DNA of 64,000 nucleotides, taken from the IMG/VR virus record IMGVR_UViG_3300022719_000071, positions 256,001 to 320,000 of that record; one strand, 5' to 3'. The translations under genes and the position numbers were made by a program. A model generated the notes under the pieces. It did no database searches, was not told the origin of the DNA, and saw nothing but the letters and a program-made list of their open reading frames with translations. The stretch comes from a virus. Taxonomy: Duplodnaviria > Caudoviricetes. Of the stretch, positions 21,334 to 52,084 are shown piece after piece (within the stretch, counting starts at the first letter, position 1; the number at the start of each line of letters is the position of its first letter).

Positions 21334-21409
21334 GGACTCGTAGCTCAATTGGCAGAGCACCCGGCTCTTAACCCGGGGGTTGCAGGATCGTTGCCTGCCG
21401 AGTCCACCA
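21334..21409 (+). tRNA. tRNA-Lys(CTT), atypical T loop
   Basis: CT-CTT-AA; T loop ATCGTTG; CCA. Confidence 0.88.
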
Positions 21410-21414
21410 AACAT

Positions 21415-21489
21415 GGCTCTGTAGCTGAGATGGATTAGCGCCTGTCTGAAGAACAGGAGAGGTTGGTTCGATTCCAACCGGAGCCACCA
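21415..21489 (+). tRNA. tRNA-Phe(GAA)
   Basis: CT-GAA-GA loop, CCA. Confidence 0.92.
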
Positions 21490-21494
21490 AACAT

Positions 21495-21563
21495 GGGTCG
21501 ATTGTGACTGATTATCGTTCTCACAAGGCCGTGGTCGTGGGTTAGAGTCCCACCTTACCTCTA
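21495..21563 (+). pseudogene. Degenerate tRNA
   Basis: Intact T arm GTGGG-TTAGAGT-CCCAC but broken D, anticodon and acceptor pairing. Confidence 0.55.
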
Positions 21564-21623
21564 CAATGGGTAAGGTAGATCACGTAAAAACGTCGGTTAC
21601 GCCCACTTATCCGTGTTTGATTT

Positions 21624-21699
21624 GGGTCCATAGCTCAATTGGCAGAGCTGCTGACTCTTAATCAGTAGGTTGGAGGTTCGAGTCCTCCTGGACCCACCA
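21624..21699 (+). tRNA. tRNA-Lys(CTT)
   Basis: Canonical cloverleaf, CCA. Confidence 0.95.
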
Positions 21700-21751: not shown

Positions 21752-21868
21752 GGGATCGTAGTTCAACGGTAGAATACTGGACTTTTACACTTCGGGGTGG
21801 CAAATTTAATTGGATGCGGCTCCGTCTAATCCAGGAGATGTGGGTTCGAATCCACGCCGGTCCCACCA
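21752..21868 (+). tRNA. tRNA-Lys(TTT) with 41-nt insertion (21788-21828) in the anticodon loop
   Basis: GGGATCG/CGGTCCC acceptor, D arm, CTGGA/TCCAG anticodon stem, CT-TTT-A[insert]A, CCA; T stem slightly irregular. Confidence 0.8.
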
Positions 21869-49626: not shown

Positions 49627-49965
49627 ATGAGCACTGAAAACGAAAATTTAGATGATGACGGATCCCTGGTAGTGGATCGTCCACCGGCAGAAGAGCGCAA
49701 GGATCTTGCGCCCCCGCCGAAGTACGCAGTAATGCTACTAAACGACGACTTCACTCCGATGGACTTCGTAATGGCAGTCCTCGTGAAATTCTTCTCGAAG
49801 TCTCAAGAGGAGGCTGAGAAGATCACCATGGAGGTACACGAGAAGGGGGAGGGGTTGGCCGGTATCTTCCCGAAGGATATCGCAGAGACCAAGGCGTCTC
49901 AGGTGTGTCACATTGCGCAGTCCAATGGACATCCGTTTAGGGCCGACGTGAAAGGTCTCCACTAA
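49627..49965 (+). CDS. clpS: ATP-dependent Clp protease adaptor ClpS
   Basis: PPKYAVMLLNDDFTPMDFV...EVHEKG...DIAETK...GHPF. Confidence 0.96.
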   Translation: MSTENENLDDDGSLVVDRPPAEERKDLAPPPKYAVMLLNDDFTPMDFVMAVLVKFFSKSQEEAEKITMEVHEKGEGLAGIFPKDIAETKASQVCHIAQSNGHPFRADVKGLH

Positions 49966-49970
49966 ACCTA

Positions 49971-50001
49971 TTGACTTTACGGAGAACCTGCCCTATATAA
50001 T
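49971..50001 (+). promoter_or_regulatory. Sigma70-type promoter for the Y RNA/rsr locus
   Basis: TTGACT then TATATAAT at 17-19 nt; +1 falls near 50007. Confidence 0.7.
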
Positions 50002-50006
50002 ACACA

Positions 50007-50086
50007 AGACCTGGGTCGAAGCTGTTTCGTTATCGTAATTGGTACATTAAAAGCGGAACAGCAGAACCTTATCCGGGGCTTAATTT
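50007..50086 (+). ncRNA. Y RNA 1 (YrlB/metazoan-type fold)
   Basis: 5'/3' helix with bulged C50017 (GGGUCGA/UUAUCC), 10-bp upper stem 50021-30/50053-62, AU-rich loop, U tail. Confidence 0.75.
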
Positions 50087-50091
50087 TTGAA

Positions 50092-50207
50092 GGCTGCGAG
50101 CCGAACGACAGATCATTATCGTTCATGTATAAACGGCGAGATGGTTCGATTCCATCATAGGTCTGGCGACACGTTAAAATTGGTCTGGCACCAACTTGTT
50201 CGCAACC
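50092..50207 (+). ncRNA. Y RNA 2 (YrlA-type tRNA mimic)
   Basis: Bulged-C helix GGCTGCGAGC-C-GA/TTGTTCGCAACC; T arm GATGG-TTCGATT-CCATC; D-like arm TTGGT-CTGGC-ACCAA. Confidence 0.78.
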
Positions 50208-50218
50208 AAGAAGAAAAA

Positions 50219-50255
50219 GCCCGGAGGGGACGCCCAGCGCCCCTCCGGGCTTTTT
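50219..50255 (+). terminator. Intrinsic terminator between Y RNAs and rsr
   Basis: 11-bp GC stem, TTTTT tail, A5 on the 5' side. Confidence 0.85.
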
Positions 50256-50299
50256 CGTTTCTACAACATACCCGATTGGACATCGGGGAGGAATACATC

Positions 50300-52084
50300 A
50301 TGGCAAACTACGCAAGAATTTCGGGCAAGACCCGTCGAAACACTCATCAGACTTCACAGACGAAGGCAATCCCTGGTCGTGAAATCGAGATGAAGAAAAA
50401 TCCGGCTGGAGGCGTGAGCTTCAAGTTGGACGACTTCGCTCGTCTACAGCGATTCATCATCCTCGGAGTTGAGGGGAACAGCTACTACCAGAGTCAGAAG
50501 ACCCTGGTGAATCAGAACGTGAGTTCTCTGGAGCGCTGTCTGGACGCTGATCCGTTCCGTGTCATTGACATGGTTGTGGACATTAGTGTGAACGGTCGTG
50601 CCTTCAAGCAGGACGCTGGACTCTTCGTGTTAGCTGCTGCCGCTTCTTTCAAGGGTGGCGTGCGCTCCGGTCGCAAGAGCCCGCCGAACCGCAATCGATT
50701 CCAGTACGAGGAGAACTACCAGCAGGCTCTAGCCGAGTATGAGGCTTCCATCGTCATCGTGGACGAGGAGCACGCAGTCAAGGTTCGTCAGTACGCACTG
50801 GAGAAGCTGCCACAGGTGGCTCGTACCGGTACGGCGCTGTACACGTTCGCTGAGTTTGTACGTGGTCAGCGTGGATTCGGTCGCAGCCTGCGTCGTGCAT
50901 TCGCAAAGTGGATGACTGACAAGCCGCTAGACAAGCTGGCCTATCAGGCATGGAAGTACAAGAGCCGTAACGGCTGGACGTACCGTGACATCATGCGCCT
51001 CACGCACCCGGTAACAGACGAGCGTGCACGTTCAGACGTGTTCGGATATATGGTGAAGGGACAGCTACCGGAAGGTGCTGACCTGAGCAACCCGGCCCTG
51101 GCACAGATCGATGCGGCTGAAAAGCTGCTGAAGATCATGACCAACCGTACTAACGTGACCAAGCCGGTCGTCAAGGAAGCTGTCAAGCTCATCGTTGACC
51201 ATCGCCTGACTCACGAGGCTGTTCCGTCCGAGCTTCGCAAGAGCCCAGAGGTTTGGGAGGCTCTGCTGGAGAACATGCCGCTTCAGGCTGCTGTCAGCAA
51301 CCTGGGTGTCATGACCAGCACTGGTCTGGTCAAGCCACTGTCGAAGGCAGAGCGAAAGATCGTGGAGATGCTTACCAACGTCGAAGCAATCAAGCGTTCT
51401 CGCATGCACCCGATGCGGTTCTACCTTGGTTCCAAGGTCTACGGCAATGGTCGTGGCGTGAAGGGTAGCCTGTCCTGGTCGCCAAGCCAGAACATCATGG
51501 ACGCTCTGGATGGTGCGTACTACGCATCCTTCGGTAACGTCGAGACGACTGGCAAGACACTGGTCATCGCTGTCGATGACTCGGGTTCTATGGACTGGGC
51601 TAACACTTCGGTTCCGAACACTAGTCCATCGGAGATTGCTGCGGCAATGGCGCTGGTCACGTACCGCACTGAGCCGAACAGCGTGCTGATCGGTTATTCT
51701 GATGGTGTTCGTGAGATGAAGGTGTCTCGTACACGTTCTCGCATCGACAGCATCATGAAGCATGTCGGTCATGGCGGTGGAACCAACACCACACTCCCGG
51801 TGCAGTACGCCTGGAACAACAAGCTGGACGTTGATGGCATCGTGTCCTACACAGACAACAACACCTGGGGCGCATGCTCTCGGGGCTGGAACAGTAATGG
51901 ACATGTTACCCAGTGGGTGAATAAGTACGTGGATCGCTTCGGTCCAATGCGCTTCATCAACTGTGCGATGGAGGCAAACAGTATCACTGATACTGATGCC
52001 AAGAATCCGTACATGTTCGAGCTTGTCGGTGTTGACGCCAATACCCCACGCATCATTAGCGAGTTCCTTGCTGGTAACCTGTAA
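50300..52084 (+). CDS. rsr: Ro60 / Rsr (TROVE plus vWA domain) RNA-binding protein
   Basis: NPAGGVSF...RLQRFIILG...SYY; YKSRNGWTYRDIMRLTHP; MPLQAAVSNLG; MHP; AVDDSGSM; GGTNTTLP; YTDN; VGVDANTP; GGAGG SD before ATG 50300. Confidence 0.95.
   Translation: MANYARISGKTRRNTHQTSQTKAIPGREIEMKKNPAGGVSFKLDDFARLQRFIILGVEGNSYYQSQKTLVNQNVSSLERCLDADPFRVIDMVVDISVNGRAFKQDAGLFVLAAAASFKGGVRSGRKSPPNRNRFQYEENYQQALAEYEASIVIVDEEHAVKVRQYALEKLPQVARTGTALYTFAEFVRGQRGFGRSLRRAFAKWMTDKPLDKLAYQAWKYKSRNGWTYRDIMRLTHPVTDERARSDVFGYMVKGQLPEGADLSNPALAQIDAAEKLLKIMTNRTNVTKPVVKEAVKLIVDHRLTHEAVPSELRKSPEVWEALLENMPLQAAVSNLGVMTSTGLVKPLSKAERKIVEMLTNVEAIKRSRMHPMRFYLGSKVYGNGRGVKGSLSWSPSQNIMDALDGAYYASFGNVETTGKTLVIAVDDSGSMDWANTSVPNTSPSEIAAAMALVTYRTEPNSVLIGYSDGVREMKVSRTRSRIDSIMKHVGHGGGTNTTLPVQYAWNNKLDVDGIVSYTDNNTWGACSRGWNSNGHVTQWVNKYVDRFGPMRFINCAMEANSITDTDAKNPYMFELVGVDANTPRIISEFLAGNL

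What the first reader, a model, noticed from the sequence alone, without database searches (positions are those of the whole stretch)
50007..50086. Y RNA 1 has a strikingly metazoan-like compact fold
Seen: pairs C50010-G50077 through T50016-A50071, bulged C50017, G-T and A-T pairs, an asymmetric internal loop, a 10-bp upper stem, a 22-nt AU-rich loop and a 3' U run. It has no tRNA-like arms. Inference: a YrlB-type gate for the Ro cavity.
Basis: partly seen in the sequence, partly recalled or inferred. Interest (0 to 1): 0.65.

Follow-up and report, generated by a model that had tools for sequence, protein, structure and literature searches.

The report
Short Y RNA beside phage Ro60
An 82-base hairpin just upstream of a giant phage's Ro60 gene is a genuine short Y RNA: an ordinary member of a large family of Ro60 partner RNAs in phages whose docking stem and UUAUC motif closely match those of animal Y RNAs.

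Summary
The described fold is in the sequence at the stated coordinates. Energy alone supports it weakly (z -2.2); comparative evidence supports it strongly. The window lies in a 360-kb uncultured phage. The hairpin (50007-50088) sits between clpS and a Ro60/TROVE gene, on their strand. The nearest relative whose DNA I could fetch (376-kb phage, Ro 46% identical) has the same clpS-RNA-Ro60 layout and keeps both stems through seven two-sided changes. A covariance model seeded from this hairpin found 171 matches near Ro60 genes in 83 loci. All were on the Ro60 strand and none lay inside Ro60; 88% of cells were paired, against about 40% in slid controls. The 89 distinct short forms share GGGYCGAAG, an upper stem, UUAUC 13 nt after the bulged C, and CUURYCC. 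Sequence and spacing match the Rfam nematode stem-bulge (Y RNA homologue) consensus, which relatives nearly reach (37.0 bits against a cut-off of 38). The window's own copy does not match it. So "Y RNA, no tRNA arms, animal-like" holds, but this copy is typical, not exceptional. The "gate" role is untested. Follow-up reports in this scan describe the same family on other DNA. Verdict: new member of a known kind.

The parts
49627..49965 (+). clpS-like gene upstream (context; same neighbour in the nearest relative)
   Evidence: Pfam ClpS E 4e-30. L064 also has a ClpS-like ORF just upstream of its Y RNA and Ro60.
49971..49999 (+). Promoter-like site: TTGACT, 17 nt, TATATA, ending 7 nt before 50007 (inferred)
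   Evidence: Read directly. The consensus scan did not call it because its -10 rule needs T at position 6. L064 has TTGACC, 17 nt, TATATT ending 7 nt before base 2224, three bases ahead of its lower stem, as here.
50007..50088 (+). Y RNA 1, short form (whole element; ends not mapped)
   Evidence: Fold. Model R2 scores it 80.4 bits, E 1e-18.
50010..50016 (+). Lower (Ro-docking) stem, 5' strand, paired with 50071-50077
   Evidence: helix 1 is 92% paired across 126 distinct rows, and 7 of 9 pairs show two-sided changes. Against L064 there are 3 two-sided and 2 one-sided changes, and all 7 pairs are kept.
50015..50021 (+). GUCGAAG, the GNCGAAN0-1G Ro-recognition motif, with unpaired C50017
   Evidence: Motif defined by Chen 2014 (PMC4201824) and found here. 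In 76 short forms the unpaired C is kept in 72 and the next G in 73.
50021..50030 (+). Upper stem, 5' strand, paired with 50053-50062
   Evidence: in helix 2 all 10 pairs show two-sided changes. There are 4 two-sided changes against L064.
50030..50034 (+). UUAUC motif at the top of the upper stem, 13 nt after the bulged C
   Evidence: Present in 72 of 89 short and 56 of 66 long forms, against 8 of 155 reverse-complement controls. The spacing is 13 nt in 64 of 95. The RF01656 consensus has the same motif at the same spacing.
50031..50044 (+). Apical mini-hairpin (50031-35 with 50040-44). Its sequence is nearly the same in L064 although the stems differ.
   Evidence: Covariation does not support this helix (helix 3), so the conservation is of sequence.
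50053..50062 (+). Upper stem, 3' strand
50069..50077 (+). UU (partners of G50018 and A50019) and the lower stem 3' strand; part of the family's CUURYCC block
50084..50088 (+). U5 run, 6 nt after the stem
   Evidence: A U4 run within 15 nt 3' of the stem occurs in 32 of 89 short forms, against 17 of 89 on the 5' side. It is common but not defining.
50092..50215 (+). Y RNA 2, long form with a T arm at 50139-50155 (context; a separate finding)
   Evidence: R2 matches it end to end with a large insert, 23.6 bits, E 0.004. Alignment.
50213..50256 (+). Strong hairpin with a U run after Y RNA 2; probable terminator of the Y1-Y2 unit
   Evidence: 17-nt perfect inverted repeat; hairpin energy -39.6 kcal/mol.
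50300..52084 (+). Ro60 orthologue (TROVE + Ro60 vWA), the presumed protein partner
   Evidence: Pfam TROVE 2e-27 and vWA_Ro60 1e-27. Closest solved structures: D. radiodurans Rsr 9e-76 and Xenopus Ro60 1e-67.

Best explanation
Bases 50007-50088 encode a short Y RNA, the small RNA partner of the Ro60 protein encoded 212 nt downstream. Shown: the 5' and 3' ends pair into a helix that carries the Ro-recognition motif with an unpaired C. A second helix stacks above it. UUAUC sits at its top at a fixed 13-nt distance. Both helices are kept by compensatory changes in relatives, and such RNAs occur only beside Ro60 genes, on the Ro60 strand. Inferred from Xenopus Ro60-Y RNA, D. radiodurans Rsr-Yrn1 and Thermus phage phiLo Ro60-Yrl2: the lower helix docks on the outer face of the Ro60 ring. 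The rest of the RNA lies over the entrance to the central hole and so limits access of other RNAs (the gate). The apical part (UUAUC plus a loop conserved with the nearest relative) offers a second binding surface. That surface could recruit a host factor such as the exoribonuclease PNPase. Also inferred: Y1 is transcribed from its own promoter together with Y RNA 2, stops at the strong terminator at 50213-50256, and is then cut out, as YrlA and YrlB of M. smegmatis are cut from one precursor.
For: Location and strand. Fold. Motif definition. Nearest relative L064 has the same clpS-RNA-Ro60 layout, a promoter-like site at the same distance, and 7 two-sided stem changes with pairing kept. A model built from this hairpin alone found same-strand hairpins beside Ro60 in eight other loci (nine hairpins). 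The rebuilt model gave 171 matches, all on the Ro60 strand, 151 upstream, 20 downstream and none inside Ro60. Covariation: 87.8% of cells paired against 38-43% with slid partners, and 702 two-sided-change cells against 222 in shuffles. The model also finds unannotated short and long elements beside Ro60 in cultured phages HyRo, Sparky and Enygma, and its long matches in HyRo and Sparky coincide with sub-threshold Rfam YrlA matches. In phiLo, Yrl1 and Yrl2 lie upstream of Ro60 and bind it; each CGAA base of Yrl2 contributes to binding; both RNAs also bind host PNPase.
Against: There is no expression or binding data for this RNA, and its ends are inferred. The energy z-score is only -2.2. In the unprocessed 256-nt transcript the predicted MFE (-95.0) uses another closing stem (50007-12 with 50159-64). 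The two-module fold is 1.8 kcal/mol worse, with about 5% ensemble probability. The covariation alignment was fitted to the model, which inflates pairing somewhat. The gate and tether roles are borrowed from other systems. The U run is 6 nt from the stem, so Y1 is not an obvious self-terminating unit.
Confidence: 0.85

Rival explanations
1. Y1 is not a separate RNA. It is the 5' part of one composite Y-RNA/tRNA hybrid spanning about 50007-50165, closed by an acceptor-like stem (50007-12 with 50159-64) stacked on the T arm.
For: That stem appears in the MFE of the long transcript: -95.0 against -93.2 kcal/mol for the two-module fold.
Against: The nearest relative keeps the Y1 hairpin with compensatory changes but has no T arm or partner strand. 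Y1 and Y2 each match the family model end to end with their own closing stems. Free-standing short forms occur in most of the 83 loci with matches. Y1 alone folds into the hairpin.
Confidence: 0.06
2. The 3' strand of Y1 is an antiterminator. It pairs with the 5' arm of the terminator at 50213-50229, so that Ro60 binding to Y1 controls read-through into ro60.
For: The two segments are partly complementary: duplex -17.6 kcal/mol. A strong terminator lies between the RNAs and ro60. This was proposed in e1-5401662.
Against: The terminator hairpin is far more stable (-39.6 kcal/mol) and forms locally. In L064 I saw no hairpin followed by a U run between its Y RNA and Ro60; this rests on my reading of the sequence and of a single fold. 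Short Y RNAs also lie downstream of Ro60 or in arrays, where this logic cannot apply.
Confidence: 0.04
3. It is only the terminator or 3' stabiliser of clpS, or a chance hairpin, and has nothing to do with Ro60.
For: It starts 42 nt after the clpS stop codon and is followed by a U run. The folding z-score is modest.
Against: It carries the complete Y RNA motif set at the right spacing. A promoter-like site lies between clpS and the hairpin, here and in L064. All 171 model matches are on the Ro60 strand.
Confidence: 0.03

Closest known systems
Short second Y RNAs of bacteria and phages: YrlB of S. Typhimurium and M. smegmatis, Yrn2 of D. radiodurans, Yrl1/Yrl2 of Thermus phage phiLo (PMC4201824, PMC12135203)
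   Same: Encoded beside Ro60 on the same strand, next to a longer tRNA-like Y RNA. They carry the CGAA-containing motif near the 5' end and a terminal stem made by the two ends, and they are hairpin-shaped.
   Different: Those RNAs were shown to bind Ro60; this one was not tested. Chen 2014 found YrlB relatives only within Salmonella, whereas this RNA belongs to a family found across many phage and metagenome loci. M. smegmatis YrlB may carry a T arm; this RNA has none.
YrlA, the tRNA-like bacterial Y RNA (Rfam RF02553; Chen 2014; Wang 2018, bioRxiv 10.1101/312249)
   Same: Same frame: terminal stem, GNCGAA motif, upper stem, then a YUAY/UUAUC block where the variable part begins. Y RNA 2, next door, is of this type.
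   Different: Y1 lacks the T, acceptor-like and D arms. In the alignment it looks like Y2 with the roughly 60-nt tRNA-like insert removed between two shared short blocks. Y1 has no RF02553 match.
Nematode stem-bulge RNAs and vertebrate Y RNAs (Rfam RF01656, RF00019; Kowalski 2015 PMC4450293; Kowalski and Krude 2015 PMC4726728)
   Same: Ends paired; lower stem with a single unpaired C in a GGNCCGA-like block; upper stem; UUAUC at the 5' edge of the loop, 13 nt after the unpaired C; CA...CUUG on the 3' side; a U run near the 3' end. Relatives of Y1 match RF01656 end to end at 24-37 bits.
   Different: Y1 itself does not match RF01656 or RF00019 at E<=10. It lacks the GUG/CAC upper-stem motif. 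It has a small apical hairpin in place of the large internal loop. It is a phage gene with a bacterial-type promoter, not a Pol III gene. The review states that bacterial Y RNAs are not homologous to vertebrate ones.

Membership tests
Bacterial/phage Y RNA, short form (YrlB-like) | Encoded within a few kb of a Ro60 orthologue, on the same strand | tested here: met
   The RNA ends 212 nt upstream of the TROVE + vWA_Ro60 gene, on the + strand.
Bacterial/phage Y RNA, short form (YrlB-like) | GNCGAAN0-1G motif near the 5' end | tested here: met
   GUCGAAG at 50015-50021, 9 nt from the predicted start.
Bacterial/phage Y RNA, short form (YrlB-like) | Long stem formed by the 5' and 3' ends, supported by covariation | tested here: met
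   Helix 1 is 92% paired and 7 of 9 pairs show two-sided changes. All 7 pairs are kept against L064.
Bacterial/phage Y RNA, short form (YrlB-like) | Bound and stabilised by the Ro60 orthologue | not testable with these tools
   Needs pull-down or gel shift. The precedent is phiLo Yrl1/Yrl2.
YrlA (Rfam RF02553) | tRNA-like domain with T arm, acceptor-like stem-loop and D arm | tested here: not met
   No T loop in 50007-50088, no tRNA call, no RF02553 match at E<=10.
Animal Y RNA / nematode sbRNA | Lower stem with a single unpaired C in the conserved Ro-binding block | tested here: met
   C50017 is unpaired between U50016-A50071 and G50018-U50070. The features are as listed in PMC4450293.
Animal Y RNA / nematode sbRNA | UUAUC at the 5' end of the loop | tested here: met
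   50030-50034, 13 nt after the unpaired C, as in the RF01656 consensus.
Animal Y RNA / nematode sbRNA | A/GUG-CAC/U motif in the upper stem | tested here: not met
   The upper stem 50021-30 with 50053-62 has no such block. L064 does have GUG/CAC.
Animal Y RNA / nematode sbRNA | Score at or above the Rfam gathering cut-off of RF00019 or RF01656 | tested here: not met
   No match at E<=10, even in a 106-nt search. Relatives reach 24-37 bits against a cut-off of 38.
Animal Y RNA / nematode sbRNA | Pol III transcript ending in an oligo-U tail directly after the stem | tested here: inconclusive
   A U5 run is present but lies 6 nt after the stem. Pol III does not apply to a phage. The ends are unmapped.

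The most novel reading that the evidence does not exclude
The short Y RNAs beside phage and bacterial Ro60 genes, this one included, are true homologues of animal Y RNAs and nematode stem-bulge RNAs. They share the bulged docking helix, an upper stem of fixed length, UUAUC 13 nt after the bulge, and CA...CUUG. If so, UUAUC is an ancient part of the Ro60-Y RNA particle, and its known role in animal DNA replication came later. Its function could then be studied in a phage-bacterium system. I found no paper that states this. One review says bacterial Y RNAs are not homologous to vertebrate ones.
Probability: 0.45. Interest if true: 0.75.

Novelty: new member of a known kind. Interest (0 to 1): 0.45.

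Why it matters
For this locus, it gives the phage Ro60 a credible RNA partner and shows that the clpS-ro60 spacer holds two RNA genes. More broadly, the hairpin is an entry point to a large set of short Y RNAs that Rfam has no model for. These RNAs carry the animal UUAUC motif at the animal spacing. That bears on where Y RNAs came from and on what UUAUC does. Both questions could be tested with a purified phage Ro60 and an 82-nt RNA.

Tried and rejected
1. DNA search of the spacer against cultured phages found no match.
Their DNA could not be fetched, and close-range covariation is missing.
3. MAFFT misaligned the window and L064 hairpins, so I used model-based alignment instead.
4. A pattern scan for the apical motif in viral contigs returned L064 plus two GC-rich loci without Ro60 in the DNA held for them. 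I treated those two as chance.
5. Rfam gave no match for Y1 at the gathering or E<=10 level.
6. The promoter scan did not call the site I read by eye.
7. Anticodon-loop display, a lead from e1-5379467: several relatives show 7-nt CU-NNN-AA loops after UUAUC. Y1's apical loop is 4-6 nt and does not fit.
8. I considered a D-loop reading of the apical AAUUGGU. No D stem can form, so I dropped it.
9. The composite-RNA and attenuator models were tested and judged unlikely.

Full report
**Setting.** The window is bases 256001-320000 of a 360,469-bp uncultured virus record. It carries 17 tRNA genes. Around the finding, a ClpS-like gene (49627-49965) is followed by a 334-nt spacer and then a 594-aa protein with TROVE and Ro60-type vWA domains (50300-52084). 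The closest solved structures are D. radiodurans Rsr, human Ro60 and Xenopus Ro60.

**Observation.**
- a 7-bp lower stem, 50010-16 with 50071-77;
- unpaired C50017;
- possible G50018-U50070 and A50019-U50069 pairs;
- a 1-by-6 internal loop;
- a 10-bp upper stem, 50021-30 with 50053-62;
- 22 A+U-rich bases between the upper-stem strands;
- a U5 run at 50084-88.

No tRNA-like arm is found. RNAfold gives -22.5 kcal/mol with z = -2.16, and 6 of 200 shuffles fold as well. Energy alone therefore does not establish the fold.

**What it is.** Chen et al. [quoted passage not shown] It occurs at 50015-21, and again at 50100-07 in a second element that carries a perfect T arm.

No cultured phage matches the spacer at the DNA level, and cultured-phage Ro60 proteins are at most 35% identical. 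Closer Ro60 proteins (72-78% identical) exist in metagenomes.

The nearest relative with DNA is L064, a 376-kb viral contig whose Ro60 is 46% identical. It has the same ClpS-spacer-Ro60 order. It has a promoter-like site ending 7 nt before base 2224, three bases ahead of its lower stem, as here. It also has a hairpin of the same design. Between the two hairpins the lower stem keeps all 7 pairs through 3 two-sided and 2 one-sided changes, and the upper stem shows 4 more two-sided changes. The apical sequence after UUAUC is nearly unchanged. L064 has no T arm in the spacer.

**Family.** A covariance model built from the window hairpin alone found same-strand hairpins beside Ro60 in eight other loci. 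I rebuilt the model from ten rows and ran it over 144 Ro60 loci:
- It gave 171 matches. All were on the Ro60 strand: 151 upstream (median gap 410 nt), 20 downstream, none inside Ro60. They lie in 83 loci, up to seven per locus.
- 89 distinct matches are short (100 nt or less; 5 have a T loop). 66 are long, and 56 of those have a T loop, so they are of the YrlA type.
- On the 139-row alignment, 87.8% of cells pair, against 38-43% when partners are slid. There are 702 cells with two-sided changes, against 222 in shuffles. 17 of the 19 pairs in the lower and upper helices show two-sided changes. The apical helix does not covary. The alignment is fitted to the model, which inflates these figures, but the margin is large.

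The model also finds unannotated short and long elements beside Ro60 in Mycobacterium phages HyRo and Sparky and in Streptomyces phage Enygma. Its long matches in HyRo and Sparky coincide with sub-threshold Rfam YrlA matches. In the window, the model matches Y RNA 2 (50092-50215) end to end with a large insert. It also matches a third, T-arm-bearing element at 21489-21624 inside the tRNA array.

**The animal likeness.** The short-form consensus runs as follows: variable stem, GGGYCGAAG, about 5 variable bases, GGGUUAUC, loop, CCCA, variable bases, CA, a few bases, CUURYCC, variable stem.

UUAUC is present in 72 of 89 short and 56 of 66 long forms, against 8 of 155 reverse-complement controls. 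It lies 13 nt after the unpaired C in 64 of 95 cases, as in the window (C50017 to U50030).

Rfam has no family that Y1 matches. Its relatives, however, repeatedly match RF01656 end to end. RF01656 is a nematode stem-bulge RNA family, and these RNAs are homologues of Y RNAs. The scores are 37.0 bits for L034 (cut-off 38), 28.8 for L064, and 24-32 for eleven more; one relative also matches RF00019. The printed RF01656 consensus has the same blocks at the same 13-nt spacing.

Kowalski et al. describe the features of sbRNAs and vertebrate Y RNAs: a bulged C in the lower stem, paired ends, a U tail, and UUAUC at the 5' end of the loop. The same review states that bacterial Y RNAs are not homologous to vertebrate ones.

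It is a property of the whole family, though. The window copy is a weaker example: it has CG instead of GG before UUAUC, no GUG/CAC motif, and no Rfam match.

**Mechanism.** Shown: the anatomy, its conservation, and its exclusive association with Ro60 genes.

Inferred from Xenopus Ro60-Y RNA, D. radiodurans RYPER and phiLo Ro60-Yrl2:
- the lower helix docks on the Ro60 ring;
- the RNA restricts access to the central hole;
- the apical part can bind a second factor such as host PNPase.

Also inferred: Y1 and Y2 are transcribed together from the promoter-like site at 49971-49999 to the hairpin at 50213-56 and are then processed, as in M. smegmatis.

**Rivals.**
- *Composite RNA.* In the 256-nt precursor the MFE uses another closing stem (50007-12 with 50159-64), at -95.0 against -93.2 kcal/mol for the two-module fold. 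That stem has no counterpart in L064, and each module matches the family model on its own.
- *Attenuator.* The proposed antiterminator duplex (-17.6 kcal/mol) cannot compete with the terminator (-39.6), and I saw no equivalent terminator in L064.
- *clpS terminator or chance hairpin.* The motif set and the strand statistics exclude these.

**Earlier notes of this scan.** After reaching these results I looked up the scan's notes. Follow-up reports on other genomes describe the same short family with the animal-like UUAUC motif (e1-5914499, e1-5758126) and say that arrays of Y RNAs beside Ro60 are common (e1-5353260, e1-5801694). My results agree with them. The anticodon-loop display reported in e1-5379467 is visible in several relatives but not in Y1.

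**Verdict.** This is a real short Y RNA and a typical new member of a known kind. It has no experimental support yet, and the gate role is untested.

Noticed in passing
window 21489-21624 (+): A third Y RNA-like element of the long type lies between tRNA-Phe and tRNA-Lys in the tRNA array, 28 kb from Ro60. Its docking helix core matches that of Y1. It also has UUAUC, a T-arm-like hairpin and a 7-bp closed acceptor-like stem. R2 scores it 21.6-22.6 bits.
   Followed up: partly
window 50092-50215 compared with 50007-50088: Y RNA 2 aligns with Y1 over the whole frame. The roughly 60-nt tRNA-like part of Y2 sits between two short blocks shared with Y1 (UUAUCGU and AAUUGGU). Y1 therefore looks like Y2 without the insert, or Y2 like Y1 with one.
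   Followed up: partly
L008:1648-1725, L016:1593-1669, L020:1447-1523, L087:1804-1885, L090:2155-2233 and others: In many short relatives UUAUC is the 5' strand of a small apical hairpin with a 7-nt loop of the form CU-NNN-AA, which resembles a tRNA anticodon loop (Asn, Ser, Lys, Ile triplets). Seen in the list. Y1 does not have this.
   Followed up: partly
L064:1866-4123: The clpS-Y RNA-ro60 gene order is shared by the two giant phages (360 and 376 kb), although Ro60 is only 46% and ClpS 31% identical. This hints at a functional link between the Clp adaptor and the Ro60 module.
   Followed up: no
window 21334-21409 (+): ARAGORN reports a tRNA with a four-base anticodon (ctta) and no amino-acid assignment; Rfam scores the same region as tRNA at 57 bits. 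It may be a tRNA with an 8-nt anticodon loop.
   Followed up: no
window 21752-21865 (+): Rfam calls a 114-nt tRNA match (45.5 bits) that ARAGORN does not report. It may be a tRNA with an insertion or intron.
   Followed up: no
L012:6342-6644: A bacterial class A RNase P RNA (189 bits, cut by the locus end) lies 2 kb from the Ro60 gene of this 70-kb metagenome contig. Some of the Ro60 loci used here are therefore probably bacterial, not viral.
   Followed up: no
L149:2082-2439 (Mycobacterium phage HyRo), L151:2092-2320 (Sparky), L152:1883-2085 (Streptomyces phage Enygma): Cultured, annotated phages carry two or three unannotated Y RNA elements (short and long) in the gap upstream of their Ro-like genes.
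   Followed up: partly
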